DNA from: a virus
DNA: 64,000 nt
Strand: one strand, 5' to 3'
Virus record (IMG/VR): IMGVR_UViG_3300009169_000001
Span: 36,395 to 100,394 of that record
The translations under genes were made by a program, and so were the position numbers. Within the stretch, counting starts at the first letter, position 1. Each line of letters starts with the position of its first letter. Shown here in pieces: positions 23,610-49,268 of the stretch. Below the pieces are notes generated by a model. The model saw only the letters and a list, made by a program, of their open reading frames with translations, had not been told where the DNA came from and did not search any database.

Positions 23610-23626
23610 CCCAAAGGAGTGACACC

Positions 23627-31107: not shown

Positions 31108-33351
31108 ATGACGGTAAAAGTTGAGGCTTTCCTAGCGATTGAGGATAGCCTGACCGCTCGTTTACAGAAGACCTACACGCGACTGGCCCGTGGGTACGAG
31201 CGTGCGGTGCAGGCAGCCATGGCCGAAGGTGATGTGCTAAAGGCGCAGGCCGTCGCCGAGAGCATCGACATGACCCCGGTCTACACCGAGAACGAGTCAT
31301 TCATCCGCATGCAGACCTACGCCTCGCTGACGTTCGGGGCCACACGCCTGACACCCGAGCCCAAGGACACGTCTGTTTCCACAGGTATCTACTCCGGCCT
31401 CGTGAACCGCATGATGAAGAAGCTGAAGGCCGAGATCGTCGGCACGTTCACGCAACGCGTGCAAGACATGATGGTGCAGTTAATTGCACAGGAAGGTGCG
31501 GGCGAGACTGTTGATGAACTGGTCGTACAGAAATACAACGAGAACCAACCCCGTGAGCCCAAGGGGTCCCCCATCGGTGGCCGCTTCAAGGGTGGTGGTG
31601 GCGGCACGGGCCGCACCCTGTACCATGTGACCCTGACCTCACGTGTAGAGGCCATCCAAGAGAAGGGTCTGCTACCCATGCAGACCAGCAACTGGATTCA
31701 AGCAGGTAGCGGCCAGCGCTATGGTGCGGGGGAGGTGTACGCCTTTGAGTCCAAGAAGGATGCGATTCGATGGGCCGCACGCTGGGACTGGCAATTGAAC
31801 AAGGCCACCGGCACCGGTGACGTGAGCATACTGGAGGTGGACAGTGATCCAGATGACTGGCAGGTAGATGAGAACGACCCGCTGAGCCAAGCAGGCGGCG
31901 AGGGGCGCTGGTTCAAGCGCATGGCGAGGATACCCCCTGAGTTTATCGGAAAGCCGTCCAAGGTCACTGCAGAGGCCATACGCTCGATCGTTATGGTGGC
32001 GAAGTACGACAAGAACCAACCCCGTGATCCCAAAGGCAGCCCCACCGGGGGTCAATGGACTTCACAGTACGCGTCCAGTGCGGATAACCCTGACGGCCTA
32101 CCCATGGATCAGGCCTCACGCTTGGAGAGGGCCCGACAGCAGGGCTTCGACACGAGCCGGGTGCTGTACCATGGGTCCAAGCAGGACATCAACGAGTTCA
32201 AGCCGGGCTACGATGATGGGCTGATCTTCCTGACCACCAACCCGGAGTTCGCGGCCAAGTGGATTCATGGCACCGGCGGCCTACGTACAAGAACGACGGG
32301 CCCCTCGGGAGAGCTGTGGGCCGACCAAGAGTACGATGCCCTGAGGGAGCGCATGAGGCCCCTACGGGCCAATTACCCTGAGGGAGACGACGGGGATACC
32401 GCGTACTATGACATGGTGTACGCCGAGAGAGCCAAGCTGGTATCCGCTAGTGCGGTGGACTCAGCGGTGTACCCCGTGTACCTGCGCGTGCACCCTGAGC
32501 AGATCTTCGACCCCCGTACCCAGTGGGCTGAGATCGAGGACACTCTCCGGGAGATCGGCAGGAAGCGACTACGGGAGACCGGTGAGGACCAAGGGTGGGA
32601 CAAGCTGATCGCCGAGGGCAGGCACAAGGAAGGTAACTGGATCATCTACGAGCGCAAGGAAGTGGTGCGGGCCCTCAATGGCATGGGATACAACGCCATG
32701 TGGATCCGTGAGTCCGCACTGCAGGATGCACCCACCGAGACCATTGCGGTGTTCGACCCTAGTGACATTCGATCCGTGAATGCGGTGTTCGACCCCAAGC
32801 ACCAGTTCAGCAAGAACATCCTCAAGTATGATGAGAACCAGCTTAGGGACAGCAGGGGTAGGTGGGCCACAATGTGGCATCTGACTGATAACCCTCAGTT
32901 TGCGTTAGATTCGGCACGCACCCCGGAGAAGAACACCTCGATGGGTCTGGGGGTTAAGCCGGGACTTTTTGTTGCTAAGGATCTGGAGCCATGGGTCAAT
33001 GGCTACGACTACGTGCGCCCGTTTGCAGTGGAGCTGAAGGTGCCACTGGATTTGTCCACCCCTGATCCCGGCATGTATGGCGGGGAGCGGTTTATTCCGG
33101 CGGAGAGATTTGGTGATGTGGAGGTATCCCGCGTGATACCTCTCGATGCGTATGCGCGTGAGGTCTACAATGACTATGGTTGGCTGGAATCGTGGCGGGA
33201 CTCACCCCCTATGGGCCAGAAACCTCCCGAGCGGTGGTACACAGGCCCTGACGTCCGGGTGATGCCTAAGAAACAACAGCGGGCGTACATTCAACTCGCG
33301 CAAGAGTATTTACGTGCTAACCGCCCATGGGTGTTGGACGAGCAGGAGTAA
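31108..33351 (+). CDS. polyprotein: MuF/gp7-like N-terminal region + three tagged ADP-ribosyltransferase-fold domains
   Basis: Helical N-terminal ~140 aa directly after portal; tags at 31522, 31993, 32815; domains LYHVT..GL.P..IPPE, LYHGS..VYPVYL..VFDP.DIRS, MWHLT..GLFV..ERFIP. Confidence 0.7.
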   Translation: MTVKVEAFLAIEDSLTARLQKTYTRLARGYERAVQAAMAEGDVLKAQAVAESIDMTPVYTENESFIRMQTYASLTFGATRLTPEPKDTSVSTGIYSGLVNRMMKKLKAEIVGTFTQRVQDMMVQLIAQEGAGETVDELVVQKYNENQPREPKGSPIGGRFKGGGGGTGRTLYHVTLTSRVEAIQEKGLLPMQTSNWIQAGSGQRYGAGEVYAFESKKDAIRWAARWDWQLNKATGTGDVSILEVDSDPDDWQVDENDPLSQAGGEGRWFKRMARIPPEFIGKPSKVTAEAIRSIVMVAKYDKNQPRDPKGSPTGGQWTSQYASSADNPDGLPMDQASRLERARQQGFDTSRVLYHGSKQDINEFKPGYDDGLIFLTTNPEFAAKWIHGTGGLRTRTTGPSGELWADQEYDALRERMRPLRANYPEGDDGDTAYYDMVYAERAKLVSASAVDSAVYPVYLRVHPEQIFDPRTQWAEIEDTLREIGRKRLRETGEDQGWDKLIAEGRHKEGNWIIYERKEVVRALNGMGYNAMWIRESALQDAPTETIAVFDPSDIRSVNAVFDPKHQFSKNILKYDENQLRDSRGRWATMWHLTDNPQFALDSARTPEKNTSMGLGVKPGLFVAKDLEPWVNGYDYVRPFAVELKVPLDLSTPDPGMYGGERFIPAERFGDVEVSRVIPLDAYAREVYNDYGWLESWRDSPPMGQKPPERWYTGPDVRVMPKKQQRAYIQLAQEYLRANRPWVLDEQE

Positions 33352-33355
33352 CTAT

Positions 33356-33550
33356 ATGAACTACCCCAAACTGATCGCGAGAAACAAATACGATGGTGCT
33401 GGTGTGTGGGTACTGGGCGAGGGCCGCAATGCCCCGGCTGTTATCAGCGTGGAAGCGCCTGACCCTGAGACGGCGGTGACCAGACCCCTGCAGGCACTGG
33501 TAGCCCACCTCGATCTGGGTGAATGGCAGAAGGTCACGGATACTGACTGA
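33356..33550 (+). CDS. small partner protein (putative immunity), 64 aa
   Basis: GGAG RBS, directly after an effector polyprotein. Confidence 0.5.
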   Translation: MNYPKLIARNKYDGAGVWVLGEGRNAPAVISVEAPDPETAVTRPLQALVAHLDLGEWQKVTDTD

Positions 33551-35616
33551 TGTACGAGATCCTCAAGTTCGACGAGAGCCAACCACGCCACCCCAAAGGC
33601 AGCCCCGAGGGAGGCCAGTGGAGCGGGGCCCCCGTTCCCAAACTGGGCAAATACGCCCGCATGGTCATAGAGCAGGTGAACTCCAACACGTGGTACCACG
33701 GGAGCAGACGCAACCTCGACATTGACAATCTGGACCTCGACCAACCCATCTACCTGACGGAGTCTGCCCGGTACGCCAGCTACTATGCCGCAGGGGAAGC
33801 CACGGGCAGCCCACTCTCATTTAATCCCGCCAAGGACACACCCCTCCCTGACTTGAGCTACGAGGAGTGGGAAGCCGAGATTGAGGCGTCCGCCAAGACC
33901 CTGAAGCAACCCCTCGACACCGACCAGCAGTACACGCGCCTACGGGAATTGGAGGAGCTTGAGAACAAGTACCAAAGTGACAGGATCATGCACCAGATCG
34001 AGATCATCCCCGATGATGTTTGGGCCACGATTGAAGCCAAGTGGCAGGCGCAGAAGCCTGAGCTGGATGCACTGCGGGCCCGATGGGAAGAAGCGGATAA
34101 ATTGCGGGACGCCCATTTCCGCCTGATCAACCGGAGATACGGGCGGCCCCAGATATACCCAGTGAAGCTGGAGATCAAAGCCCCCTACCTGACCACCAAT
34201 GAAGATTTCATTCTAGGCTTTGAAGGCGGGCTCTCCATTAAGGAGGACGAAGACATCCAGCGACTATTGGCCAAGGGCTACGACTCCATTGTGTGGACAC
34301 CCAGCGCTGAAGAGATGGATGGATTCGAAGACTTCGGGAAGATGCAAGGGTACGCCTACGGCTCAGAACTACTGATCATTGACCCCAAGGTGATCAAGAA
34401 AATCCGCTCTGTTTACCGCAAGAGAGACCGCGTCCAGTTTTTGTCCGGGACAGACCTGCGCGTCCTGAAGTACGACCAAAATCAAAAAAGACACCCCAAG
34501 GGTCACCCGAAAGGGGGGCAGTGGGCGGATGAGGGCGCAGAAAACAGCGCACCACTGGCCGAAAGACTGACCAGTTTCATGGAAGAATTGTGGGCTACGA
34601 CGGACCCACACCCCTTCGCACATGGCATGCGGTTGACCAAGGACTGGGTGGGTTTGGAGGTGAGGCCGTTCGATAACGCGATCCACCTGAGTTCGATCAT
34701 GTCGTTTGTGCCCAAGGGCAAAGGGGCAGGCACCAGAGGTTTGTTGCAGTTAATTGCACTGGCAGACAAGCATCAGGTCGACATCACCGGGTTTGTAAAG
34801 CCGATCGAGAATGCGGGGTCTGATGAAGGTAAGCCGAGCCTGACCAAGAAGCAGCTGCACAAGTGGTACGCCAAGCATGGCTTCAAGAAGGACAAGGCGG
34901 GGGACTACATCCGACGCACGCCCAAGGTTGAGGTTGAGAAGTACAGCAAAGACCAGCCCCGACACCCGAAGGGCACGCGTGAAGGGGGACGCTTCGCTTC
35001 TTCAGGCAACCATGCGCTGGCCAACAATGGACGGGCCGCCCTGCGCCGGAAAGGCTTTGATCCAGATCAAGTGCTTCGGGATTTGAAGAAAGAACAGGCC
35101 AAATTCACCAAGAATGGCGCGAATTTGGGCATTCGGGTCGACGCCGACCTCGATCAAGAGGCCCTGCCTACTGAGGAACTGACTCGGATCATGAAAATGT
35201 TCCCGGCGAAGAGCTACGAGGGCTGGACCTTGGCACATGGTGAGGAGTTCGTCTCCCCAGCCACACCACCCCCGATCAAACTGGGCACACCGAAGCAATG
35301 CTTTGCCAACGCGGGCAAGTACGTGGCCATGGACTCCGTGTTCGCCAAGGATGATGTGGAGTATGTGGAGGGCTTTGTGATGGACGCTCGCCTGCCATTC
35401 CCTATCCACCACGCGTGGTACGTGAAGAGCGGGACCAATGAGGTAATCGACCCCACGATGGGCTGGAGACCCGGAGCTGCCTACTATGGTGTGCGCTTCG
35501 ATCGGGCATTCCTGCGCAAGAAGCTGTTCGACCAGAAATACTATGGCCTATTCACCGATGGCCTGCGGCCCCTGCCGCTGATACTAGGTGAAGATGAGGA
35601 CTACGACTACACATGA
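33550..35616 (+). CDS. polyprotein: tagged ART-like + GNAT + papain/transglutaminase-like domains
   Basis: Tags at 33556, 34459, 34930; WYHGS..IYPVKL..GYDS; KGKGAGT..WYAKHGF; CFANA..HHAW..IDPT. Confidence 0.75.
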   Translation: MYEILKFDESQPRHPKGSPEGGQWSGAPVPKLGKYARMVIEQVNSNTWYHGSRRNLDIDNLDLDQPIYLTESARYASYYAAGEATGSPLSFNPAKDTPLPDLSYEEWEAEIEASAKTLKQPLDTDQQYTRLRELEELENKYQSDRIMHQIEIIPDDVWATIEAKWQAQKPELDALRARWEEADKLRDAHFRLINRRYGRPQIYPVKLEIKAPYLTTNEDFILGFEGGLSIKEDEDIQRLLAKGYDSIVWTPSAEEMDGFEDFGKMQGYAYGSELLIIDPKVIKKIRSVYRKRDRVQFLSGTDLRVLKYDQNQKRHPKGHPKGGQWADEGAENSAPLAERLTSFMEELWATTDPHPFAHGMRLTKDWVGLEVRPFDNAIHLSSIMSFVPKGKGAGTRGLLQLIALADKHQVDITGFVKPIENAGSDEGKPSLTKKQLHKWYAKHGFKKDKAGDYIRRTPKVEVEKYSKDQPRHPKGTREGGRFASSGNHALANNGRAALRRKGFDPDQVLRDLKKEQAKFTKNGANLGIRVDADLDQEALPTEELTRIMKMFPAKSYEGWTLAHGEEFVSPATPPPIKLGTPKQCFANAGKYVAMDSVFAKDDVEYVEGFVMDARLPFPIHHAWYVKSGTNEVIDPTMGWRPGAAYYGVRFDRAFLRKKLFDQKYYGLFTDGLRPLPLILGEDEDYDYT

Positions 35617-37601
35617 TGGACCTCCACGACGACGAGTACCTGTACCTCAACCAATCGGTGGAAGGCCAGCCGATTGAGCCTGATGAGATGGCGATGCTGG
35701 CAACGACCAGCCTGATGCGCATCCTCAAGTACAGCAAGGACCAGCCGAGGGCCCCGAAGGGTACGGCTATCGGGGGCCAGTTCGTGGATGATCTGGAAGC
35801 GGGGCTTGCCATGACCCGTACGAAGATTTTGGCACTGGGCAACAAGTCTGGCATGGAGCACTTGGCGGTGTTGGGCCCTGATGGCAAGCTGGCGGTCGAT
35901 ATCAAGCGCGGCAACAAGAGCAGCGTGGAGTTCACTCCCGAGATGCTGAAGCTGTTCGAGATGGAGGAGAACGACTACCTGCTGGTGCACAACCACCCGA
36001 AGACGTCATCGCTCTCTATGGCGGATCTGACCGCAACCATGTTCCCCGGCGTCAAGGCCATTGAGGCCGTAGCCAGTGATGGGCCCAACAACATTGCGTT
36101 CCGGGGGTCCATGATCATTGGTAAGGATCTGGACAGCGAAGAGCTGCGCAACACCATAGGCGGGTACCTGCGCAACATGAACACCCGGATCGGTGACCAT
36201 ATCTTCAAGCCGCTGTCGGAGAAAATGACTTCAGGTGACATCACCTCTTTTGAGGCTAACCTGTTCCACACCCACTCGGTCAATGAGGTGCTCCGGAGGG
36301 CCAAGGTCACCGACTACAAGGTGGAGGATCCCACCGGGATGCTGCCCAAGATCGAGAAAAAGGTACGCAAGAGCGTAGCGTGGGATGATGTTCTGAAAGC
36401 CGCCCAGAAAGATCTGGAGGGTATGGTGGATATGGAGTTCCTGCAGGAAGACATCGCTGCCCATGAGAGCGAGCGAGTGCACAAGGCCGACTGGTTCGTG
36501 GGCCTCATCGACCCTCCCACTCTGGAGTACGCCACCACCGAAGAGCTGCGGGAGTGGAAAGCCGATCTGGACGCTATGCCCATGTTCGCAGACAAGCCTG
36601 ACATGGTGCGGGATGTGCACGCCGCTCTGGCAGCGCGAGGCCAGTACGCGTTCATCCTCAAGTACAGCGAGAATCAGCCCCGAGACCCTAAGGGCACTCC
36701 CACCGGAGGCCAGTGGTCGGCGACGGGGGGTGAGGCAGGCAACACTTACGGTGCAATTAATGTCAATAGCGGGGCGGTGCGTTACCGGGAGGATGCACTT
36801 CTCGATGCCATGGTGCAACGCGGGACGTTTACCGAGCCTAAGGCCATTGATCTACTCAACCGTGCCGATGAAAACCTTCGGGGGGTACTGGCTGAGGCCG
36901 ACATCGTGATCAACCGCAGGACCCTTGAAGTGCTCGCAGGCATTGCCATGGACGGGCGCATCAAATCTCAGTTCGAGACTGGCAAGTCCGATGGCATGCT
37001 GGACCCCAATTTCCGGAGCAAGGCTGAGAGCATGTTGTTCGGCATCGATCACCATGATGACGATGAGGACCTCTGGGATGAAGATGGGGGCCGCAAGCCC
37101 GGCAGCAAGATCAAGGAGTTCCCCCCTGCGCTGCGCCCTATCTATGGGTACGCGAAAGATGAGGATGATGATTTCGATGTGGCCTCTGAGTACGGGCGCT
37201 ACCAGCTGGTACTGAAGAATTCTGTGCGGGAGCGCACTACCATTACCGGGGGCGACAGTCTGGACTACTCGTTCGATGACCCACGCTACATGCCCTCCCC
37301 GATCGATAGCCCCTCGGTGGTGTCGTTTACCAACCACAGCGACCCTGATGAGGCAGCCAACTTTGCGGAGGTCGCCGCCAATGGTGGACTGGGTAACACC
37401 AAGGACATCCGGGCACACGTGCGGTACAGCGGCTATCTTGAGGTCCAGATCCATGGGGGCGTCAAGCTGTCCGATGTCAAGAAGCTGCGGGTGCCCAAGC
37501 CGGTGGTCGATCAGGAGCAGTATCGGGAGCAGGCTGAAGTGATCATGCAGATGTACCGTGACGCCGGGATAGAGGTCGAAGTTTACGAGTTTGACAGGTA
37601 A
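35613..37601 (+). CDS. polyprotein: tagged JAB/MPN-like + DUF3626-like domains
   Basis: Tags at 35718, 36651; E..HNHP..SLS..D; KSQFETG, RPIYG, YG, RTT..GDS, YLEVQIHG. Confidence 0.7.
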   Translation: MMDLHDDEYLYLNQSVEGQPIEPDEMAMLATTSLMRILKYSKDQPRAPKGTAIGGQFVDDLEAGLAMTRTKILALGNKSGMEHLAVLGPDGKLAVDIKRGNKSSVEFTPEMLKLFEMEENDYLLVHNHPKTSSLSMADLTATMFPGVKAIEAVASDGPNNIAFRGSMIIGKDLDSEELRNTIGGYLRNMNTRIGDHIFKPLSEKMTSGDITSFEANLFHTHSVNEVLRRAKVTDYKVEDPTGMLPKIEKKVRKSVAWDDVLKAAQKDLEGMVDMEFLQEDIAAHESERVHKADWFVGLIDPPTLEYATTEELREWKADLDAMPMFADKPDMVRDVHAALAARGQYAFILKYSENQPRDPKGTPTGGQWSATGGEAGNTYGAINVNSGAVRYREDALLDAMVQRGTFTEPKAIDLLNRADENLRGVLAEADIVINRRTLEVLAGIAMDGRIKSQFETGKSDGMLDPNFRSKAESMLFGIDHHDDDEDLWDEDGGRKPGSKIKEFPPALRPIYGYAKDEDDDFDVASEYGRYQLVLKNSVRERTTITGGDSLDYSFDDPRYMPSPIDSPSVVSFTNHSDPDEAANFAEVAANGGLGNTKDIRAHVRYSGYLEVQIHGGVKLSDVKKLRVPKPVVDQEQYREQAEVIMQMYRDAGIEVEVYEFDR

Positions 37602-38194: not shown

Positions 38195-38200
38195 AAACAT

Positions 38201-41200: not shown

Positions 41201-43257
41201 ACTGCCAGACAACCCCGGCGTATATATCGACACCGTCCAAGAAGTAGACCTGTTCGTGTGGCACATTTTTGAGGGGGTGGGGAATGAGTAAGTTAGTTCC
41301 ATGCGGTAAGACATTGGGTCACGGTGTGAGCTGCACTGACAGCTTTGAAGGCGGACTGTGCGATAGTTGTCAGCACATAAAGGAGCTGGAGGAGGACAAG
41401 GTAACCCTCCGTGAAGTGACATGGACTCAGGATGCCCGCATCAAGGAGCTGGAGGCAAGGCTCGCAACGATTATTAAAATCTACCGCACCGCTGGCCCAT
41501 GCTTAGATTGTGACGCAATAGGTGAAGCAATAGAGCAAGCAGAAGGCTGCGGTGAATGGTACTGGGCAGATTTGGGCATGCCTGTTTCTGAGAGTGCCGA
41601 GAACCCGAACGAAAATTGCTTCACAAAAGTATGGGTACCGGAATGAAACACGAAACGACGATTGAGTTAAAACCCTTCAGCACACCGAATTATGTGCTGA
41701 TTGCTCCAAAGCTGGGGAGGCGGCAGGACGGGTTCGACCATGCACCTGCCATCCCCCTGTCTGACCTGAGTGTAGAGACGCTGGACTCCCTGTGCACGCA
41801 GTTCAGGGCCGACGTATTCGCCAAAGCAGGCAAGGCCGACGTAAAAGAGGGGAAGGGCCGATGACTGATTGCGAGCACGGACAGCCCGAGTGGGCCGCCT
41901 GTCCAAAGTGTATTGAGGCCGCTGAGGAGCGCATGGCTGCCCGACTCCAAGAGTTGGAAGAGCGGCAGGTGGCGTGGCTGCAGGAAAAAATGGAGGAGGC
42001 ACAGAAAGTGGCCAAGCTGGCTCGCATGCTCTACCTTGCACGAGACGCCCTTACCCAGATCAGTCTGGCCAGCAATAACAGTATGTCTACAAAAATCGAG
42101 TGCGGGCGGATCGCCCGTAAAGCCTTGAAGGAGCTGCACCTATGAGTGATAACCCCCTCTGCCCCCACTGTGGGAAGATCTTCTATGAAGCAAATCGTGT
42201 GAGCATACATGGTATGTACGACGCCCACCTTTTTCAGAAAGTTACGGGGAACAGTGTTGATGAGATCATCCTGAACTGGGTGCTGGAGGAAGACGACGTT
42301 CAGTACGGCCCAACGTCTCTCTGCCCCGCCATTGTGCTGTGCGGCAAGAGGGAGTTGCGACGCGTGGGTCCCATGGTGCATAGGCGCACTGACGCCGCTG
42401 TGCTCAAGCAGTACCGGGAAGCGCTGCTGGCCGACCCCGATATACCCCGCCTGCTGGGTTTGGGTACAGCCTCTGAAAGGCCGGAGTGACGCCATGAGTG
42501 CATTCAGTGAATTTGTGATAACCTACTGGCACTTCACGGTCCCTGTAACTCTGATCGTTGGAAGTTTTTTGGCAGGCCGCTACGCCTAAGGTGAGCTACC
42601 ATGAGAATACGCACGTTCAGGAAGATATCGACCCTCGGCCTGTTGATGGTGGCCACGACGCTGCCGATACTGATCACCAACTTCCACGCCCCCGGCGGGC
42701 TGGAGTACATCCTGTCCATGTCGGCGTCCATCGGCATACCTCTGGGGCTGCTAACCTCTATAGCGCTGCGGACAGGGCACCTCTATGACGTTTGATCCCA
42801 AGGTACGGTAATGAAGACGCGATATTTACTGCTAGGTATGTTTATAGGCATTCTCGGGGGAGCGCTATTTCAGTTTGTGCTCATACATGCACCGCACCAC
42901 AGCACAGTACTCTTCTGTGAAGAAATCATGGCCCGTAACCCACATGATGGGAGGTAGCATGAGCCTAGCAGAGGATGCCACAGGGCTTATCCTAATCTTT
43001 TTCGTAGGCGGGCTCTTCTACCTTGGGTGGGTGCTATCCAAGAGGAAAAAGTGATGGCGTGGTGGCAAAGGATACGCGCCCGGTGGTGGATAATTCGACA
43101 CCATGGGGACTCGATAAATCGGCGGGTGGAGGTAGAGAATTACCTGCTGAAAGCCTACAAAGGACAGAAGCCTCTACCGGATAAAGCCATGTGTCGAGAG
43201 CTGGCCGTGAAACTGGGCGTGCCCACAGACTGGCAGAAAAAACCGGGTAGCCCCTAA
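38201..43257 (+). other. block of ~20 small, tightly coupled hypothetical ORFs (includes HTH 38720-39025 and small membrane peptides)
   Basis: Promoter TTGACA(38201)-17-TAGTAT; 45-150 aa ORFs with overlapping start/stop codons; none carry the peptide tag. Confidence 0.65.
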
Positions 43258-43477
43258 GAAGCTCCCAACGTATTCCGAGCCGAAAGGCTTTCGTTGGGAC
43301 CTGCGGTAGCGCGTGGGGCAAAGTCGTGATGCTGGCACAGCCGTCCCTGACACTTCAACGGCTGTGACTGGGTAAGGTGTGGGGCGTAAAGTAATGCACT
43401 TAATCACGGAATAGCTATTCTTTGACAGGGGGTACGCACCCCCCTAGCATGTAGGGATGCGCCGAGAGAACTCTGAC

Positions 43478-44275
43478 ATGTCCCTGTTTTCCATCCTAAA
43501 ATTCAACCCGTACCACGACCCGAAGGATGGCCGGTTCACCACCGGCGACGGGGGTGGTAAGGGCGTTGTTACTACTTCAGATGTGAACGCAGCCGCCAAG
43601 GCGCTGGCTGAGGGGCGGAAGGTACGCCTGACCAGCACCAAGCAGGTATCGACCCTGCTGGCCAAATTGCGAGAGATCGTCGCCGACGCCAAGGCCAAGG
43701 GCAAAGACGCCCCCAATTACAACTTGTGCAGCGTGTCCGTGAAGGGCACCAACCTCTTCTGTGCCGAGAACAAGGGCCTTGCCCGTGTGCAGATGCCGCA
43801 GCTCTCTGGCAAGCCCCTGCCGGGCAGTAAGGGCGACAAGCTGCCCAAGGATAAGGACGGCGGCATCGATCTTACTGGTAAGTTCCGGGAGCACCTTGAG
43901 AAGGCGCTAGGCGTCAAGGTGTCGGATGAGGATGAGAAGGCCTCGTACCTGAAAGCCACACAGAACGAACTGAACGGCGTGAAGGTGGCGGGCATGTCCG
44001 GTGCCTTGGAGTCCGGCACCCTGCCGGATGCCAGACTGTTCGTGTCCAAGGACAACTACGTCGTGGACGGGCACCACCGCTGGGCGGCCAATGTTGGCGC
44101 TGACGCGTCTGATGGGAAGCTGGGGGACCTCACGATGAAGGTGGCGCGGGTAGACATGGACATCATCACCCTGCTGTACGAGTCCAATAAATTCGCCAAG
44201 GACTGGGGCCTGCCCCAGATGAGTGCCGCCAACGTGAAGAAGACCACGGGCTGCGGGTGCGCTACGTGCAGTTAA
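43478..44275 (+). CDS. tagged ParB/Srx-like domain protein
   Basis: SILKFNPYHDPKDGRF tag; LKATQ, VSKDNYVVDGHHRWAA; promoter TTGACA(43422)-17-TAGCAT. Confidence 0.75.
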   Translation: MSLFSILKFNPYHDPKDGRFTTGDGGGKGVVTTSDVNAAAKALAEGRKVRLTSTKQVSTLLAKLREIVADAKAKGKDAPNYNLCSVSVKGTNLFCAENKGLARVQMPQLSGKPLPGSKGDKLPKDKDGGIDLTGKFREHLEKALGVKVSDEDEKASYLKATQNELNGVKVAGMSGALESGTLPDARLFVSKDNYVVDGHHRWAANVGADASDGKLGDLTMKVARVDMDIITLLYESNKFAKDWGLPQMSAANVKKTTGCGCATCS

Positions 44276-45207
44276 TTGCACTGCTGAAGTTCAACAAGCA
44301 CCACGAGCCTGCAGGCACTGAGATAGGCGGCCAGTTTGCTTCCGTTGAGGCGTGGCGTCTGCAGCCGGGGATCTACCAGAAAAACGGCGTGTGGGTCCGC
44401 AACGGCAAGACGGTAACCGGCGCTGACGCAGCGACGTTGAAGCGCATGCGCGTGCCCCCAGCGTGGAAGGACGTCAAGGTCAACCCCAACCCTGATGCCA
44501 AGCTGCAGGTGATCGGCAAGGACGTGAAGGGCCGAACCCAGTACCTGTACTCCGCCGCTCACAGTGAGCAGGCCGCCGCTGAGAAGTTTGCCCGGATCAA
44601 GGCGTTCCACGATGCGCTGCCCAACCTGCGCAACCACATGACGCGGGACATCCATGACCCCAACCAGCCTGCAGCTGTGCGGGAGTCCGCTCTGGTGCTG
44701 CGCCTGATCGATAAAACGACGTTCCGGGTGGGCTCGAATGCGGAAACCCATGGGGTTAAGAAGGCCTATGGGGCCACGACTTTGCGGGGCGAGCATGTTA
44801 CAATACTGGGTAACAAGGTCGCGTTTTCCTTCGTTGGAAAGAAGGGCGTCCAGATAGACCAAACGATCACCGATCCGGTACTGGCGAAGGAGCTGCGAGC
44901 CCGGAAGCGCGAGGCCAAGAACGGCCCACTGTTCAAGGTAACCGACAGCCGCCTGCGCCAATACATCAAAGATGAGGGCTTCGGGGGTTTTTCGCCGAAG
45001 GACTTCAGGACATACCACGCGACCTCGATGGCGCTGGCGCTGGTGCGCAAGACCCCTATGCCGGGGAACCGTACGCAGGCCAAGAAGGCCAGAAAGGAAG
45101 TTGCGACCAAGGTGTCTACCAAGCTGGGCAACTCGCCCGCCATGGCACTGGCATCGTACATCAGCCCCGAGGTGTTCTCGGACTGGGAGGATCTACTCTA
45201 TGACTGA
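44266..45207 (+). CDS. tagged DNA topoisomerase IB
   Basis: VPPAW, GKDVKGRTQYLY, FRVG, GATTL, F.GKKG, KDFRT, LGN, SYI (catalytic R-K-R-N-Y); start may be 44257 or 44266. Confidence 0.88.
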   Translation: MQLIALLKFNKHHEPAGTEIGGQFASVEAWRLQPGIYQKNGVWVRNGKTVTGADAATLKRMRVPPAWKDVKVNPNPDAKLQVIGKDVKGRTQYLYSAAHSEQAAAEKFARIKAFHDALPNLRNHMTRDIHDPNQPAAVRESALVLRLIDKTTFRVGSNAETHGVKKAYGATTLRGEHVTILGNKVAFSFVGKKGVQIDQTITDPVLAKELRARKREAKNGPLFKVTDSRLRQYIKDEGFGGFSPKDFRTYHATSMALALVRKTPMPGNRTQAKKARKEVATKVSTKLGNSPAMALASYISPEVFSDWEDLLYD

Positions 45208-45334
45208 GAAAGACGACACGATCAACGAAAAGAAGGAGGAGCAGTTAATGCTCGATTTCTTCGGGACCGTGCAATACGACAAGACCAAGCCTTGGCAGAA
45301 AACGCCGGAGACTGAAGAGGATCCTGACGAATGA
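45200..45334 (+). CDS. small acidic partner protein, 44 aa
   Basis: GGAGG RBS; overlaps the topoisomerase stop; ends ETEEDPDE. Confidence 0.5.
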   Translation: MTEKDDTINEKKEEQLMLDFFGTVQYDKTKPWQKTPETEEDPDE

Positions 45335-46089
45335 CACTGCTGGCCATCTTCAAGTTCAACCCCTATCACGATGAGAAGGGGCGTTTTGCTACGGCTGACG
45401 GCCATGCGTCCCGGTCACCCGCCCAAGGGCAGGGCATCGATTTCGTCTCACCGAACAAGGCCAACCTGAGCTATGTCCGGGCCAAAGAGCGGCTGCAGTC
45501 TCGTGAGCAGTCCCTGCTGGTCCAGTACGGTACCAAGATCAACGCAGCACTGGGCATCAAGGGCTCGATCGCATCGGTAGTAGGGGCGTGGGCTGACGGC
45601 GCTGAGAACAGCACTGTGGGGGTGTACGACGATGACACCCCCTACGAGGCCATCCGCGCCGCAGCCTCCCTGAAGGGGCTACTGGAGCGGCAGAAAGCGG
45701 TCATCGCATTTAAGGCCAGACCCAAGGGCAAGGCCCGTGTGTCCATGCTCGAATTGAAAGGTGGATTGGACATACATCATAATGCTATGATAGAAGCAGG
45801 CATAGAATTTCACACCCTGCAGCCGACCGCTGATGGCGTGAAGGCGTGGGTGTTTCAAGATAAGAGTTCCTCGGCCCTCAACACGAAACTGGCGCACTAC
45901 GCCAAGTCGATGGGGGGGCAGCTAACCACGTGGGCCGGAGACGGTGAGTTCGTGGGGAGCTGGTCTTCCCGCACGGAGGGGAAAGCCGCGTACCTGAAGG
46001 AGCTGGACAGCTACACCGAGCGACACCCGGAGACCAAGGCTGGGATCGACGGAATACTCAAGGACTGGAGACGGAGGTCTGGGCAATGA
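45331..46089 (+). CDS. tagged protein of unknown function
   Basis: AIFKFNPYHDEKGRF tag; GAWADGAENS motif. Confidence 0.7.
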   Translation: MTLLAIFKFNPYHDEKGRFATADGHASRSPAQGQGIDFVSPNKANLSYVRAKERLQSREQSLLVQYGTKINAALGIKGSIASVVGAWADGAENSTVGVYDDDTPYEAIRAAASLKGLLERQKAVIAFKARPKGKARVSMLELKGGLDIHHNAMIEAGIEFHTLQPTADGVKAWVFQDKSSSALNTKLAHYAKSMGGQLTTWAGDGEFVGSWSSRTEGKAAYLKELDSYTERHPETKAGIDGILKDWRRRSGQ

Positions 46090-46283
46090 AGGCGAAGGGC
46101 GTGATACCGGGGTGGGAAGAAAAGCTGAGCCCCGAGGACAGGGCTATTCTTGAGAGGCACCGGAAGGTGTATCCTGCCATGATCGCGGCCAAGCCACGTA
46201 TGACCGACGAAGAATTTATGGGCCTCACCGAAGCGTCGGCGGAGCAGTACAAGAAAGGGATAATCCTGCCGGGGGTGGGGTAG
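46086..46283 (+). CDS. small partner protein, 65 aa
   Basis: ATGA-coupled, GGAGG RBS. Confidence 0.5.
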   Translation: MKAKGVIPGWEEKLSPEDRAILERHRKVYPAMIAAKPRMTDEEFMGLTEASAEQYKKGIILPGVG

Positions 46284-46284
46284 C

Positions 46285-47301
46285 ATGAATTTTCTCGACA
46301 TTCTGAAGTTCGATGAGAACCAGCCGCGCAAGCCGAAGGGCACCCCTGAGGGCGGCCAGTTTGCCTCTACTGGGGGCAAGGCCTCTGGCGGCGGTGTCAT
46401 GGGCGGCCCCGGCGCGGGCAGCACCTTAGACGGGACCTCTGCAGCGCTGCTCCGGGATAAGAACATGGAGGCCGCAGCCCTGAGAGGCGTACAGGCCGCG
46501 CTCAAGAACAAAGGCTTGGACCCTTCCATGGCGGAGCAGCTGCTGGCCCGAGGTAAGGCGATCGAGAAGGAAGTCGAAGACAACTACACCAAGAACGCCA
46601 CCGAGTTCATGCACAAGCTGAAGAACGGCGACTGGACACCTGAGCGGCGGGATCTGCACACCAAAATTCTTGAGGAGTTCTTCGCGAACGAAGACCGGTT
46701 CAAGCCGCCCACCGGTGAGCCCCCGCAGGTACTGCTGTTAGCAGGCCGACCGGGCTCCGGCAAATCCAATTTCGGCAAGGCCCTCAAGATTTACGACAAG
46801 GAGAGCTACATCGTACTGGACTCGGATGAGTTCAAGGCGTTGTTGCCTGAGTACGACCCGGAGCGTCCGGGGTACACTCACCGGGAAGCCTCGGATCTGA
46901 TGGACACCGCTGGCTTGATAGCGCGGGCCAAGGGACTGAACATCGTCTATGACATGACGATGAAAAAGCCCCCAGATGACCTGATCACTATGTTCAAGAA
47001 CCACGGCTACAAGATCGAAGGGCATCAGATGGATGTCTCTGAAGAGACCTCCGCCGAGCGGGCCTACTTCCGGTGGGTTAATGACGGCCAGAACGGCACA
47101 CCGGGCCGCCTCGTACCCCTGAGCATTATTAAGGAAATGAAGAAAATTCCTGAGGTGTTCAAGGCGACAGCCAGTAAATTAGACGCATGGACGCACTACA
47201 CGCATGAGAATCTGGGAGAACAGATCCGGGTAGCGGCCAGTGAGAAGTACAGGGTAGCGAAGGCTTTCCTGAAACGAATCCTCAAGGGAGTTACACGATG
47301 A
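46285..47301 (+). CDS. tagged zeta-toxin-like P-loop kinase
   Basis: DILKFDENQPRKPKGTPEGGQF tag; AGRPGSGKS, LDSDEFK, HREAS, NIVYDMT. Confidence 0.8.
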   Translation: MNFLDILKFDENQPRKPKGTPEGGQFASTGGKASGGGVMGGPGAGSTLDGTSAALLRDKNMEAAALRGVQAALKNKGLDPSMAEQLLARGKAIEKEVEDNYTKNATEFMHKLKNGDWTPERRDLHTKILEEFFANEDRFKPPTGEPPQVLLLAGRPGSGKSNFGKALKIYDKESYIVLDSDEFKALLPEYDPERPGYTHREASDLMDTAGLIARAKGLNIVYDMTMKKPPDDLITMFKNHGYKIEGHQMDVSEETSAERAYFRWVNDGQNGTPGRLVPLSIIKEMKKIPEVFKATASKLDAWTHYTHENLGEQIRVAASEKYRVAKAFLKRILKGVTR

Positions 47302-47486
47302 CCGATTTATCCAAGGATGAAATACGCCAACGGGCCTACGATGATACCCCGGACCCCATGGGCGTGACCATCCTGTTCAGCATGTGGTACAACGACGCAG
47401 GGAAGAAGCCCGAGGAACTGGGCCCTGAGTATGATGACTTGAAAGTGGCGTACGCCAATTGGTTGAAGGCCCGAGGATATGCCTGA
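47298..47486 (+). CDS. small partner protein (putative antitoxin), 62 aa
   Basis: ATGA-coupled to the zeta-like gene. Confidence 0.5.
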   Translation: MTDLSKDEIRQRAYDDTPDPMGVTILFSMWYNDAGKKPEELGPEYDDLKVAYANWLKARGYA

Positions 47487-47808
47487 TCTACTCCGCATCT
47501 TAAAAATGAACCCGTGGCATGATGAAGCGGGTCGATTCGCTCATGCACCGGGGGGTCGGAACCTTGTGCCCAACATCGCGTGGATATCGGACGGCAAAAA
47601 TCGGATATCCACCGACGGGCGCTTCAAGATCGAACCTTCCAGTTCCAATGGCCAGAAATTTAAGAAGGGCACCCCGGTGTACCTCCTGACCGACACTCGC
47701 CACAACAGAGACACCCTGCTGAAGTTCCCCAAGTACCGGGAGTTTATGAAGTTGGAAGACGCGAAAATCGAAGCGAACATGCGGCTGGAAGAACTTGTTG
47801 ATAGCTAA
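47479..47808 (+). CDS. tagged small protein of unknown function
   Basis: RILKMNPWHDEAGRF tag. Confidence 0.65.
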   Translation: MPDLLRILKMNPWHDEAGRFAHAPGGRNLVPNIAWISDGKNRISTDGRFKIEPSSSNGQKFKKGTPVYLLTDTRHNRDTLLKFPKYREFMKLEDAKIEANMRLEELVDS

Positions 47809-49102
47809 GGCTGAGCGGATTGTCCGGGACTTCACGTCCTTTGACACCGAGGCCAAAAACCTATTGCAGTTAATTTCACAGCTGCACACGAGTCGTGTGT
47901 CGGGCTACGGCTACACCGCTGAGGCCGAGATACTGGGCGTGGAGTACTACGCCATCAATGAGCAGCTGGATGTGCGCACCTGCCCTGTGTGCGAGATGAT
48001 GCACGGCAGGGTGTTCCCGGTTTCCGAGGCTAGACGCTTGCTCGACGATATCCTCTTCGAGGAGGATCCCGAGATCATCAAGACCAAGCAGCCGTGGCCT
48101 AGCCAGAAGCAGGCCGCCGTAGCATCAATGCAATTAATGTCACCGGAAGAATTGATCGGTAAGGGGTGGCACATCCCACCCTTCCACCCGTGGTGCAGGG
48201 GCATACTGGTCCACGTGAAGGATGTGCCCGACAAGATCATGCCTGTGGAAGTGGCGGCCCTGCAGGAAGTACTGTCTTCACCGGTACACGCTGGGCGTCC
48301 GATCGAGGTTACGGATTTTGAGGCTCTCAAGCAGATCTCCACCCTAGACTTCAGCATTCAAAACCCCAATGGGAAGATCCCGGAGCTGCGCCCCGAGCAC
48401 TTGGCCACGTGGAACAAGGTGATGGGAGACGTCACCCCCGCCGCGCTGTACAACGTGGTCAACAACGGATTCAAAGGTGCGTTGGCGGTGAACGGCGGGG
48501 AGTTTACCCTGAGCATAGGGGGGGACAACATCCTCATGTCTGCCCGGATGTGGGATGACGTGAAGGGTACCGTGGGGCGCAGCATACTGGCGCACCTAGA
48601 GCGCACTTTTGTTCGCGAGCGGGATGGCGTGCTCAATGTAGAGCATGATTACTTCAAGATTGCTAACCGGCACGCCCGCAGCGGGTACGGCAAGAATTTC
48701 ATGTCCGAGTCCTTTCGCCTCTACGAAGAGATGGGCGTCGAGGCGGTAGATGTAGATGCCAACATCGAGGTGGGGGCCTACGCGTGGGCCAAGTACGGCT
48801 TCAAGCCTAAAAACCTCAAGGTGTCCAAGGCCCTCTCCGATAATTTGAGAACCACCCTGAGAGCGATGTCTTGGCGCTTGTCCCCGGATGTTGTGGACGC
48901 CGTGCAGGAGGTGATCACCAAGATCCAGACCGATCCCACGGCCTTGTGGGTCCTGTCTGACATCGGGTTCATCACTGAAGGTGAGCCCCTTGCCAAGAGC
49001 CTGCTGTATCGTAAATCGTGGCTGGGTACGATTAGACTGGATGATGATGTAGCCATGAATCGGCTATGGGCCTACGTAGGGAGACCTGAAAATGTCAAAT
49101 GA
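47795..49102 (+). CDS. MuF/gp7-like C-terminal domain + C-terminal GNAT-like effector
   Basis: LDVRTCPVC..MHG and PPFHPWCRG MuF motifs; ARSGYG..GAYAWAKYGF; TTG start uncertain. Confidence 0.8.
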   Translation: MLIAKAERIVRDFTSFDTEAKNLLQLISQLHTSRVSGYGYTAEAEILGVEYYAINEQLDVRTCPVCEMMHGRVFPVSEARRLLDDILFEEDPEIIKTKQPWPSQKQAAVASMQLMSPEELIGKGWHIPPFHPWCRGILVHVKDVPDKIMPVEVAALQEVLSSPVHAGRPIEVTDFEALKQISTLDFSIQNPNGKIPELRPEHLATWNKVMGDVTPAALYNVVNNGFKGALAVNGGEFTLSIGGDNILMSARMWDDVKGTVGRSILAHLERTFVRERDGVLNVEHDYFKIANRHARSGYGKNFMSESFRLYEEMGVEAVDVDANIEVGAYAWAKYGFKPKNLKVSKALSDNLRTTLRAMSWRLSPDVVDAVQEVITKIQTDPTALWVLSDIGFITEGEPLAKSLLYRKSWLGTIRLDDDVAMNRLWAYVGRPENVK

Positions 49103-49268
49103 GATGTTCACCCGGAATGGACGTGTCAAAACGGATGAGGCCCTGCACAAGCCCATGCTGGCCAACTTCGAGGCCGACAAAATGACGCAGGAGCAATCTG
49201 CGGCGGTCGCCCGTTCGTGGGGCATGTCCACCGAGATGGTCCAAAAGCTGTTCCCACTGGCAAATTGA
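49092..49268 (+). CDS. small partner protein, 58 aa (not in ORF track)
   Basis: GGGAG RBS; MSNEMFTRNG...LFPLAN*; overlaps the MuF-GNAT stop. Confidence 0.5.
   Translation: MSNEMFTRNGRVKTDEALHKPMLANFEADKMTQEQSAAVARSWGMSTEMVQKLFPLAN

What the first reader, a model, noticed from the sequence alone, without database searches (positions are those of the whole stretch)
31108..49268. Tagged effector array inside the head module: candidate modular virion-cargo/toxin system
Seen in sequence: 14 copies of one peptide motif across 9 ORFs between portal and prohead protease: VVQK|YNENQPREPKGSPIGGRF, MVAK|YDKNQPRDPKGSPTGGQW, NILK|YDENQLRDSRGRW, EILK|FDESQPRHPKGSPEGGQW, RVLK|YDQNQKRHPKGHPKGGQW, EVEK|YSKDQPRHPKGTREGGRF, RILK|YSKDQPRAPKGTAIGGQF, FILK|YSENQPRDPKGTPTGGQW, KILK|YDVNQPRDKNGMW, SILK|FNPYHDPKDGRF, ALLK|FNKHHEPAGTEIGGQF, AIFK|FNPYHDEKGRF, DILK|FDENQPRKPKGTPEGGQF, RILK|MNPWHDEAGRF. 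Each copy sits immediately N-terminal to a separate domain: four ART folds, GNAT, papain-like, JAB, DUF3626-like, ParB/Srx, topoisomerase IB, zeta kinase and three unknowns. It occurs both at ORF starts and between domains of polyproteins, and I saw it nowhere else in the window. Established: MuF proteins can carry C-terminal toxins, and phage polyvalent proteins carry ART/GNAT/ParB domains. Inference: the motif is a portable address label (protease site plus packaging or ejection tag) that loads ~14 enzymes into the capsid for delivery with the DNA, without each needing its own MuF domain.
Basis: partly seen in the sequence, partly recalled or inferred. Interest (0 to 1): 0.95.

Follow-up and report, generated by a model that had tools for sequence, protein, structure and literature searches.

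The report
Tagged capsid-cargo enzyme array in phage head
A 100-kb phage carries, between its portal and head-protease genes, 14 enzyme modules that each begin with the same short peptide. The peptide looks like a head-protease cut site joined to a conserved "header", it occurs in thousands of uncultured phage proteins, and I could not find it described.

Summary
Exactly 14 copies of the tag (34-64 bits) lie on the + strand at 31.5-47.5 kb; the next-best match in the whole 100,394-bp genome scores 8.7 bits. Seven copies start ORFs and seven are internal.

The tag has two parts:
- **Upstream half (h-x-h-h-K).** It matches a motif, [ILVM]xK[AST][DE], that is strongly enriched in the scaffold and marks the capsid N-terminus and MuF-C start here and in two related phages. 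This is the probable cut site of the XkdF (S78) head protease.
- **Downstream block ([FYW][ND]xxQPR...GG[QR][WF], or FNPYHDxxGRF).** It stays on each module.

In other phages the Lys goes with an S78-type protease: 25 of 30 contigs with one, against 1 of 6 complete contigs without. In the contigs without a protease, the block sits bare at ORF N-termini, so it has a role of its own.

The array lies inside a split MuF (SPP1 gp7) gene. Relatives DLP_5 and RcZahn have one gene or none at this site.

The tag profile hits 7,885 protein clusters. Carriers are fused to portals, MuF and head proteases and carry ART, zeta, TopIB, Acb1 and similar domains. No Pfam or NCBIfam model and no paper I could search describes it.

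This scan has reported the same tag on other DNA. Cleavage and packaging remain untested.

The parts
29249..31102 (+). portal protein (left border of the array)
   Evidence: PF04860, E 2.3e-10; 42-45% identical to the portals of Stenotrophomonas phage DLP_5 and Rhodobacter phage RcZahn
31108..31533 (+). MuF N-terminal half, ending in VVQK at the first tag
   Evidence: Aligns with residues 1-139 of DLP_5 gp003 (MuF+ParB), E 4e-9, and ends exactly at the tag Lys; homologues in L107, L087 and L129 are each followed by a tag
31108..33351 (+). polyprotein 1: MuF-N plus three tagged modules (ART-like, ART-PolyVal, unknown)
   Evidence: Tags at 31525, 31996 and 32818; PF18760 at 30.9 bits for module 2
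31525..31590 (+). tag 1 (long form, internal)
31996..32061 (+). tag 2 (long form, internal)
32818..32865 (+). tag 3 (NQ-type without the PKGxxxGG insert, internal)
33550..35616 (+). polyprotein 2: three tagged modules (ART-like motif; two unknown)
   Evidence: Tags at 33559, 34462 and 34933; no Pfam or PDB hit
33559..33624 (+). tag 4 (long form, ORF-initial)
   Evidence: in-frame stop 2 codons before the ATG
34462..34527 (+). tag 5 (long form, internal)
34933..34998 (+). tag 6 (long form, internal)
35613..37601 (+). polyprotein 3: 36-residue leader, then a JAB-motif module and a DUF3626 module
   Evidence: Tags at 35721 and 36654; PF12294 E 1.5e-9; HNHP...S..D motif seen in the sequence
35721..35786 (+). 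tag 7 (long form)
36654..36719 (+). tag 8 (long form, internal; best-scoring internal copy)
   Evidence: 60.9 bits
37646..38194 (+). tagged single-module ORF (unknown domain)
   Evidence: Tag at 37664; no family hit
37664..37711 (+). tag 9 (NQ-type short, ORF-initial)
38195..43456 (+). untagged block of small ORFs that interrupts the array
   Evidence: No tag; only phrog_3848 (unknown function) for 41028-41291; lower G+C; promoter-like TTGACA-17 sites at 38201 and 43422
43478..44275 (+). tagged ParB/Srx-like module
   Evidence: Tag at 43493; AF2 pLDDT 81 with the tag region at 46-56; Foldseek top hits are ParB-N and sulfiredoxin; DGHHRW motif
43493..43537 (+). tag 10 (FNPYHD short form, ORF-initial)
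44257..45207 (+). tagged type IB topoisomerase
   Evidence: PF01028 E 1e-27 and PF21338; tag at 44281
44281..44340 (+). tag 11 (FNKHHEPAGxxxGGQF hybrid form, ORF-initial)
45331..46089 (+). tagged single-module ORF (unknown; homologue in L107)
   Evidence: Tag at 45346; 38% identical to a tagged ORF in relative L107
45346..45387 (+). tag 12 (FNPYHD short form, ORF-initial)
46285..47301 (+). tagged zeta-toxin-like kinase
   Evidence: PF06414 E 5e-24; tag at 46300
46300..46365 (+). tag 13 (long form, ORF-initial; best score of all)
   Evidence: 64.2 bits
47479..47808 (+). tagged small ORF that overlaps the MuF-C gene in another frame
   Evidence: Tag at 47497; overlap read
47497..47538 (+). tag 14 (MNPWHD short form, ORF-initial)
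47795..49102 (+). MuF C-terminal half (SPP1 gp7-like) plus an unknown tail; begins LLIAK|AERIV
   Evidence: 44% identical to DLP_5 gp003 residues 141-278, E 8e-40; phrog_115/595/30193; TIGR01641 at 29 bits, below its cut-off
49319..49918 (+). XkdF-type S78 prohead protease (right border)
   Evidence: PF14550 E 2e-25; invariant His, Ser, Asp and Glu columns in A4
49989..51089 (+). scaffold-like protein carrying six [ILVM]xK[AST][ADE] sites
   Evidence: 6 observed against 0.42 expected, 0 of 2000 shuffles reach this; homologous to the gene between protease and capsid gene in DLP_5, RcZahn and IMG/VR relatives
51116..52051 (+). major capsid protein with an N-terminal ...SLIKK|ADIAL site
   Evidence: 62-74% identical to the capsid genes of relatives; the same N-terminal site is present in DLP_5 and RcZahn

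Best explanation
The 18-kb interval is an expanded capsid-cargo module.

An SPP1-gp7/MuF head gene has been opened at its internal junction. Fourteen effector modules have accumulated there as three polyproteins and six single-module genes. They include ART-like, JAB-like, DUF3626, ParB/Srx-like, TopIB and zeta-kinase domains and several unknown ones.

Each module is headed by a two-part peptide.
- **Upstream half.** A short amphipathic stretch ending in Lys (h-x-h-h-K). It is a substrate site of the phage's XkdF-type S78 prohead protease, which would cut after the Lys inside the prohead. This frees the modules from one another and removes the 5-11-residue leaders of the single-module proteins.
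- **Downstream block.** [FYW][ND]xxQPRxPxGxxxGG[QR][WF], or the compact F-N-P-Y-H-D-x-x-G-R-F form. It then becomes the new N-terminus of every module. It acts as a header that loads or keeps the module in the capsid, or leads it out with the DNA.

The modules are delivered into the host at infection. The small ORFs directly behind several modules probably neutralise them in the producing cell.

**Shown:** the anatomy, the confinement, the peptide-level conservation, the MuF split, the spread of the tag, and its link to head genes and to S78 proteases.

**Inferred:** cleavage after Lys, presence in the virion, and the role of the header.
For: 1. **Real and confined.** There are 14 copies at 34-64 bits; the next-best match in the genome scores 8.7 bits.
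2. **Selection acts on the peptide, not the DNA.** The copies are only 60-78% identical as DNA.
3. **The protease-site pattern recurs in expected substrates.** [ILVM]xK[AST][ADE] occurs 6, 9 and 7 times in the scaffolds of this phage, DLP_5 and RcZahn, against 0.4-0.8 expected (none of 2000 shuffles reach this). It also marks the capsid N-terminus in all three phages (SLIKK|AD, DLIKK|AD, SLLQK|AD), the MuF-C start (LLIAK|AE; VEVEVQK|AE in L099) and the DLP_5 MuF junction (VVKK|AA). The tags carry the same P3-P1 pattern (VVQK, MVAK, VEK, ILK).
4. **The Lys was not selected for in the search.** Of 462 tags from IMG/VR, found with DNA patterns that did not include the upstream half, Lys holds that column in 94% and Val/Ile the P3 column.
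5. **The Lys follows the protease.** It is the majority state in 25 of 30 contigs with an XkdF or HK97-type S78 protease, against 1 of 6 complete contigs with none (Fisher P = 0.0035). At tag level this is 84 of 109 against 2 of 14.
6. **The header works without the cut site.** In the protease-less contigs the header stands at the very N-terminus of separate ORFs (MTYNPNQPR, MPYNPNQPR, MTNWNEQDHPR). It therefore has a role apart from cleavage, at or near a free N-terminus.
7. **Head context.** All 109 tags in the 30 contigs lie on the protease strand, and 96 lie within -25 to +3 kb of the protease. Many XkdF domains are followed 5-47 residues later by a tag.
8. **Carriers are fused to capsid-interior proteins.** These are portals (PF04860, PF06381, PF06074), MuF and XkdF. 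They bear anti-defence or toxin domains: ARTs, zeta, Acb1, TopIB, NUDIX, 2H and barnase.
9. **Relatives show the same plan.** They have portal - MuF-N-tag-cargo...cargo-MuF-C - protease - scaffold - capsid. In L107 this is one ORF. DLP_5 has one MuF gene and RcZahn none at this site.
10. **The tag is flexible.** In the AF2 model of ORF 43478 the tag region has pLDDT 46-56 and lies in front of a well-folded domain.
11. **Established knowledge.** HK97 gp4 (S78) cuts gp5 after Lys103, and SPP1 gp7 is brought into procapsids by the portal (my own knowledge). MuF is regarded as a capsid-targeting domain for toxins (PMC11699363; PMC5512222).
Against: - No cleavage, no virion proteomics and no packaging data exist for this phage or, as far as I could find, for any tag-bearing phage.
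- The scaffold motif was defined after I had looked at the scaffolds, so its enrichment is post hoc. Its P1' and P2' residues (Ala/Ser, Asp/Glu) also differ from the tag's (aromatic, Asn/Asp).
- The Lys-protease link rests on only six protease-less contigs. Five protease-bearing contigs, three of them HK97-type, lack the Lys.
- In bacterial genomes, mostly Alphaproteobacteria, only 30 of 118 tag loci show a recognisable head gene inside the 8-kb locus. Many of those tags have Arg-Lys, Lys-Ala-x or no Lys before the aromatic residue.
- Most of the 14 modules have no recognisable family, so calling them enzymes is unproven for about half.
- The header's partner is unknown.
Confidence: 0.55

Rival explanations
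1. Cut site only. The whole roughly 30-residue tag is an extended recognition sequence for the prohead protease and has no addressing role. Packaging depends on MuF-N, MuF-C or co-assembly. Tags at ORF starts are relics of broken-up polyproteins.
For: The upstream half resembles the scaffold and capsid sites. Tags flank the protease domain itself in many polyproteins, as expected for self-release. Polyproteins fused to portal or MuF need no further address.
Against: Contigs without any detected S78, ClpP or S49 protease keep the header but lose the Lys, and place the header at ORF N-termini. About a fifth of all tags (96 of 462) are ORF-initial, as are seven of 14 here. The scaffold and capsid sites manage without the downstream block.
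Confidence: 0.2
2. Cassette joint. The tag is a conserved boundary, like VENN in CdiA or other pre-toxin motifs, that marks where toxin modules are swapped by recombination. It also serves as a flexible linker and is neither cut by the head protease nor an address.
For: Modules behind the tag are unrelated and differ between relatives. In alphaproteobacterial genomes the tag precedes CdiA-CT-type RNase A domains, which are followed by small DUF2019 or DUF6968 ORFs, as in polymorphic toxin loci. Short shared DNA words of 10-17 nt exist between copies.
Against: DNA identity between copies is low (60-78%) while the peptide is conserved across very distant phages. A recombination joint does not explain the co-variation of Lys with the protease. 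It also does not explain the strict aromatic residue after the Lys.
Confidence: 0.08
3. Another protease does the cutting. Candidates are a papain-like, JAB or zincin module of the polyproteins themselves, as proposed for polyvalent and MuF toxins, or a host protease. The cut could come before or after injection.
For: Iyer et al. 2017 propose processing by built-in zincin metallopeptidases. Zhang et al. 2012 list papain-like proteases for the MuF system. Module 7 here has a JAB motif.
Against: Among 116 non-redundant tagged ORFs, the only peptidase families found were XkdF (3) and one anthrax-LF-like domain. Most tag-bearing contigs have an S78-clan protease nearby, and the Lys follows it.
Confidence: 0.07
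4. Degradation timer. A cut after the Lys exposes Phe, Tyr or Trp as the new N-terminus, which is a ClpS/ClpAP N-degron. The injected toxic enzymes would then act briefly and be destroyed.
For: The residue after the Lys is Phe 69%, Tyr 23% and Trp 4% in 462 tags. These are three of the four primary destabilising residues of the bacterial N-degron pathway (my own knowledge).
Against: Leu, the strongest degron residue, is essentially absent. In protease-less phages the header starts Met-Thr-Tyr or Met-Pro-Tyr, which would not expose an aromatic residue. The hypothesis does not explain the conserved 10-18 residues that follow.
Confidence: 0.05

Closest known systems
Phage-type polyvalent proteins (Iyer, Burroughs, Anand, de Souza, Aravind 2017, J Bacteriol; PMC5512222)
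   Same: Several unrelated effector domains (ART, ParB-like, zeta kinase, JAB/RadC-like, GNAT-type) sit in one polypeptide. They are encoded beside virion genes, are often fused to MuF or portal, and are predicted to be packaged and injected.
   Different: That work does not describe a shared header peptide; text searches for linker, cleavage and processing found none. It proposes processing by built-in zincin peptidases. Here the modules are also spread over six single-module genes that keep the header, and the array is nested inside a split MuF gene.
MuF polymorphic toxins of temperate phages (Zhang et al. 2012, PMC3482391; Jamet et al. 2017, PMC5576092; Bxa and Apk2 work, PMC11699363, PMC12226406)
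   Same: A MuF head-protein domain is joined to variable toxin domains in the head-morphogenesis region. Small ORFs, proven or presumed immunity genes, follow the toxin.
   Different: The classical form is one MuF domain plus one C-terminal toxin. No junction motif or cleavage is mentioned in those papers. Here MuF is split into N and C halves 16.3 kb apart, with 14 tagged modules between them.
T4 internal proteins (IPI-III, Alt) with the capsid targeting sequence, cut by prohead protease gp21
   Same: It works like this system. A short N-terminal peptide is linked with loading of non-structural proteins into the prohead, the head protease then trims it, and the cargo is injected with the DNA.
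   Different: T4 uses a different protease family (S77) and a different site (Leu/Ile-x-Glu). The T4 signal is removed with the propeptide. Here the conserved block lies after the cut, would stay on the cargo, and also occurs inside polyproteins. This comparison rests on my own knowledge of T4.
HK97 gp4 / XkdF (MEROPS S78) prohead proteases and their substrates
   Same: Cuts fall after Lys in head proteins; HK97 gp5 is cut at Lys103|Ser104 (my own knowledge). The protease gene lies between the portal and capsid genes, and the scaffold is digested at many sites.
   Different: The known substrates are structural proteins: capsid delta domain, scaffold, portal and the protease itself. Cargo enzymes with a dedicated high-information tag have not been described as substrates.
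Pre-toxin boundary motifs such as PT-VENN of CdiA (Zhang et al. 2012)
   Same: A short conserved peptide lies directly in front of interchangeable toxin domains.
   Different: The delivery route differs (type V secretion) and there is no link to capsid genes. VENN is not known to be a protease site.

Membership tests
Phage-type polyvalent proteins (Iyer et al. 2017) | Two or more unrelated effector domains in one polypeptide | tested here: met
   ORF 31108-33351 holds MuF-N plus three tag-delimited modules, one of them ART-PolyVal. ORF 35613-37601 holds a JAB-motif module plus DUF3626. Several modules have no recognised family.
Phage-type polyvalent proteins (Iyer et al. 2017) | Encoded among virion (late) genes of a portal-terminase phage | tested here: met
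   The interval lies between the portal and the XkdF protease, scaffold and capsid genes.
Phage-type polyvalent proteins (Iyer et al. 2017) | Packaged in the virion and delivered at infection | not testable with these tools
   This needs virion proteomics. Only context supports it.
MuF polymorphic toxins (Jamet et al. 2017) | An intact N-terminal MuF domain fused to one C-terminal toxin | tested here: not met
   MuF is split. Residues 1-139 of the DLP_5 homologue match the start of ORF 31108, and residues 141-278 match ORF 47795. Several modules follow rather than one toxin.
MuF polymorphic toxins (Jamet et al. 2017) | Cognate immunity gene directly downstream of the toxin | tested here: inconclusive
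   Small coupled ORFs lie behind five genes: 33314-33550, 45200-45334, 46086-46283, 47298-47486 and 49104-49268. Their function was not tested.
T4-type capsid targeting sequence system | N-terminal propeptide cut by an S77 (gp21) protease at Leu/Ile-x-Glu | tested here: not met
   The protease is PF14550 (S78 clan) and the tag residue before the presumed cut is Lys.
Substrates of S78 (HK97/XkdF) prohead proteases | An S78 protease is encoded in the same head module | tested here: met
   PF14550 at 49319-49918, E 2e-25.
Substrates of S78 (HK97/XkdF) prohead proteases | The site resembles the sites of the phage's own structural substrates | tested here: met
   The same h-x-K pattern occurs in the scaffold (6 copies), the capsid N-terminus and the MuF-C start. 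The P1' residue differs.
Substrates of S78 (HK97/XkdF) prohead proteases | Demonstrated cleavage | not testable with these tools
   This needs N-terminal mapping of virion proteins or an in vitro assay.

The most novel reading that the evidence does not exclude
The downstream block, [FYW][ND]xxQPR...GG[QR][WF] or FNPYHDxxGRF, is a general, portable N-terminal header. It would be sufficient by itself to load any protein into HK97-fold phage capsids, or to lead it out through the tail. It would work independently of fusion to MuF or portal. Thousands of phages, gene-transfer-agent-like elements and prophages would use it to deliver arsenals of anti-defence enzymes and toxins.
Probability: 0.3. 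Interest if true: 0.9.

Novelty: new variant of a known kind. Interest (0 to 1): 0.7.

Why it matters
Phages are known to inject proteins with their DNA. Outside T4, however, there is no known rule for how non-structural proteins are chosen for the capsid, and the biological role of MuF-linked toxins is still called unknown (PMC11699363).

A short peptide that marks cargo in thousands of phages would help in three ways:
- It would give a sequence-based way to read a phage's injected arsenal from its genome. That arsenal includes many domains of unknown function, Acb1-type anti-CBASS enzymes, ARTs, TopIB and zeta kinases.
- It would give a direct handle for experiments: tag fusions, protease mutants and N-terminomics.
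- It would offer a possible tool for loading chosen proteins into phage particles.

This window is a good test case. It has 14 modules, both polyprotein and single-gene forms, an identifiable protease and scaffold, and cultured relatives (DLP_5, RcZahn) that lack the array.

Tried and rejected
- **Co-fold of protease with a tag** (complex prediction, alignments A4 and A5). No verdict (score 0.02), so it is no evidence either way.
- **AF2 of a natural XkdF-domain-plus-tag fusion** (A8). The protease domain is confident. The tag region has only pLDDT 52-58, with a weak helix before the Lys and a weak hairpin after it. There is no sign of docking, and the tool gives no contacts.
- **tblastn of a 51-residue tag segment against cultured phages.** No match. 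A tagged Firmicutes-type protein found only its protease or ART domains in 15 records. I could not name a cultured phage that carries the tag, or find proteomics for one.
- **The search for related loci with the tag alignment.** It was replaced by two DNA-pattern scans.
- **The look-up of encoding contigs.** Closed.
- **The look-up of sequencing runs.** The frame overlap at 47795-47808 could therefore not be checked against reads.
- **Literature string searches** for NPYHD, NQPRD and similar found nothing relevant. Searches for prohead-protease specificity found only T4/phiKZ-type work.
- **Sequence searches of the three polyproteins** against PDB, NCBIfam and PHROGs gave almost nothing. A homologue search for ORF 33550 gave only two relatives, too few for a useful fold.
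- **A first neighbour-clustering of the bacterial loci** merged everything through the tag itself. It was discarded and redone without tagged ORFs.
- **Strict dependence on the XkdF family** was rejected. HK97-type S78 proteases also occur with tags, and six complete contigs have neither.

Full report
**1. What is there**

The window is the right-hand 64 kb of a single 100,394-bp virus contig. All are on the + strand between 31525 and 47497, and none occurs in any other frame or strand.

A profile built from them (A1) was run against the six-frame translation of the whole genome. It scores the 14 copies at 34-64 bits, and the next-best match scores 8.7 bits.

The copies lie in nine ORFs. Seven open an ORF, with in-frame stop codons 2-23 codons upstream of the start. 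Seven are internal, 157-311 residues apart.

As DNA the copies are only 60-78% identical over 58 nt. What is kept is the peptide, not a DNA repeat.

**2. Gene map**

The order on the + strand is:
- Pol A (26664-29036)
- portal (29249-31102, PF04860)
- the tagged interval
- XkdF-type S78 protease (49319-49918, PF14550)
- a 366-residue scaffold-like protein
- the capsid protein

The closest cultured phages by portal (42-45% identity) are Stenotrophomonas phage DLP_5 and Rhodobacter phage RcZahn. They share the synteny from the pyruvate-phosphate-dikinase-like gene through Pol A and portal to protease, scaffold and capsid. Between portal and protease, however, RcZahn has nothing and DLP_5 has one gene, a MuF+ParB protein. 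Neither has a tag.

**3. The array sits inside a split MuF gene**

Residues 1-139 of the DLP_5 protein align with the start of ORF 31108, and the alignment ends exactly at the Lys of the first tag. Residues 141-278 align at 44% identity with the start of ORF 47795, which begins LLIAK|AERIV. ORF 47795 also matches SPP1-gp7/MuF families.

Uncultured relatives have protease 51-61% and capsid 62-74% identical to ours. They show the same plan: portal, MuF-N-tag-cargo ... cargo-MuF-C, protease, scaffold, capsid. In L107, MuF-N, a tag, one domain and MuF-C lie in a single ORF. In L177, L152 and L165, MuF-C ends a long tagged polyprotein.

MuF-C is always preceded by a hydrophobic-x-Lys junction, for example VEVEVQK|AERIL in L099. 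The MuF junction therefore appears to be the place where cargo cassettes are inserted.

**4. The upstream half looks like the head protease's own site**

The motif [ILVM]xK[AST][ADE] occurs 6, 9 and 7 times in the scaffolds of this phage, DLP_5 and RcZahn, against 0.4-0.8 expected. None of 2000 shuffles reaches the observed count. I defined the motif after looking at these proteins, so the enrichment is post hoc.

The motif also marks:
- the capsid N-terminus in all three phages
- the C-terminal part of our portal
- the MuF junction

The tags have the same P3-P1 pattern. They differ after the cut, with an aromatic residue then Asn/Asp in place of Ala/Ser then Asp/Glu. HK97 gp4, the type S78 protease, cuts after Lys (my own knowledge).

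**5. The tag elsewhere**

- A word-indexed search with the tag profile found multi-tag proteins of 700-2000 residues. They are fused to portals, Mu-type portals, XkdF and MuF, and carry Acb1, PARP/ART, Tpt1, TopIB, zeta and GNAT domains.
- Two DNA-pattern scans of IMG/VR gave 210 loci with 462 tags.
- Lys fills its column in 94% of aligned copies and Val/Ile the P3 column, although neither was part of the search pattern. The residue after the Lys is Phe, Tyr or Trp in 96%.
- 96 tags are ORF-initial and 362 are internal. The median spacing is 225 residues, and a median of 204 residues follows the last tag.
- A Pfam tally of 116 non-redundant tagged ORFs shows portals (10), MuF (5), XkdF (3), ARTs (14), zeta, PI3/4-kinase-like, barnase, Acb1, TopIB, NUDIX, 2H and others. 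It shows no conjugation proteins.
- An exhaustive profile search of 1.84 billion representative proteins gives 7,885 clusters at E <= 0.001 and 122 at E <= 1e-30, with up to 14 tags in one protein.
- Pfam and NCBIfam have no model that matches the tag. I found no description in the polyvalent-protein or MuF-toxin papers or by string search.

**6. Link to the protease**

Of 48 tag-bearing contigs of 30 kb or more, 24 have XkdF and 7 more have an HK97-type S78 protease. Among the 26 that are at least 90% complete, 20 have one or the other.

In the 30 contigs where I mapped both features:
- All 109 tags are on the protease strand.
- 96 lie between -25 and +3 kb of the protease.
- Many XkdF domains are followed 5-47 residues later by a tag.

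Lys is the majority state in 25 of 30 contigs with a protease, against 1 of 6 complete contigs without (Fisher P = 0.0035; at tag level 84 of 109 against 2 of 14). Those six contigs also lack ClpP- and S49-type proteases.

In the six, the downstream block stands directly at ORF N-termini, for example six such ORFs in L176. The sample is small. Even so, it separates the two halves: the Lys half goes with the protease, and the block works at or near a free N-terminus.

**7. Bacterial genomes**

The tagged ORFs there are short (median 249 residues).
- Twelve carry a CdiA-CT-type RNase A domain, seven are portals and two are S78 proteases.
- The commonest neighbours are portal, S78, connector/capsid, terminase, and small DUF2019 or DUF6968 ORFs.
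- Only 30 of 118 loci show a head gene inside the 8-kb locus.

Confinement to head modules is therefore shown for this genome and supported for viral contigs. It is not shown for bacterial chromosomes.

**8. Structure**

- AF2 of ORF 43478 gives a confident domain with pLDDT 81. ParB-N and sulfiredoxin are the top fold matches. The flexible tag region has pLDDT 46-56.
- A natural XkdF-plus-tag fusion gave no confident placement of the tag.
- The co-fold job gave no verdict.

**9. Reading**

The best-supported account is a two-part tag. A prohead-protease site frees the modules inside the prohead, and a retained N-terminal header does something else, probably loading, retention or exit.

The concept of capsid-delivered polyvalent and MuF-linked effectors is known. 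The shared header, its two-part logic and the nesting inside MuF appear to be undescribed.

The same tag has been reported by earlier agents of this scan on other genomes. This window is therefore a further, well-suited example rather than a first sighting.

Noticed in passing
window 47479-47808 and 47795-49102: The tagged 109-residue ORF ends 14 nt inside the MuF-C ORF, which is in the +1 frame and has only TTG starts (47795, 47798). In relatives MuF-C is the C-terminal end of a longer tagged polyprotein. This may be a frameshift (programmed or an assembly error) or a genuine split with re-initiation.
   Followed up: partly
window 33314-33550, 45200-45334, 46086-46283, 47298-47486, 49104-49268: Small untagged ORFs of 44-78 residues are tightly coupled (overlapping stop and start codons) behind polyprotein 1, TopIB, ORF 45331, the zeta kinase and MuF-C. 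The arrangement matches the immunity genes that follow MuF toxins.
   Followed up: partly
window 38195-43456: A 5.3-kb block of about 15 small ORFs, several Cys-rich, with no family apart from one phrog of unknown function. It has lower G+C and sits in the middle of the array. Promoter-like TTGACA-17 sites lie at its start (38201) and just after it (43422).
   Followed up: partly
window 31472, 34742, 44264, 47862, 48126: Five copies of a near-palindromic 15-24-nt word (TGCAGTTAATTGCAC). In frame it encodes [VL]QLI[AS], among other places at the end of MuF-N, at the start of the TopIB ORF and in MuF-C.
   Followed up: no
window 49770-49915 (C-terminal 50 residues of the protease): The protease of this clade has a His-rich C-terminal extension with HxH repeats. 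It begins with F-x-V-x-Y-D-x-x-G-x-F-x-G-G, which MAFFT aligns with the short tag (F-N-P-Y-H-D-x-x-G-R-F) found at the same place in other XkdF proteins. It may be a relic of a tag, or chance.
   Followed up: partly
window 49989-51089; L001 4125-5348; L002 16019-17440: The scaffold proteins of three related phages are studded with [ILVM]xK[AST][ADE] (6-9 copies each). This is probably the cut-site consensus of this XkdF protease clade.
   Followed up: yes
loci L225-L344 (bacterial genomes): In Alphaproteobacteria the long tag (NQPRVPAGNPDGGQWT) heads short ORFs with CdiA-CT-type RNase A, MafB19-deaminase and unknown domains. These are often followed by DUF2019 or DUF6968 ORFs. Locus L230 has five such ORFs in tandem.
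   Followed up: partly
window 20387-25876: The truncated pyruvate-phosphate-dikinase-like gene and two phosphatase genes upstream of Pol A are conserved in synteny with Rhodobacter phage RcZahn genes 6-11.
   Followed up: no
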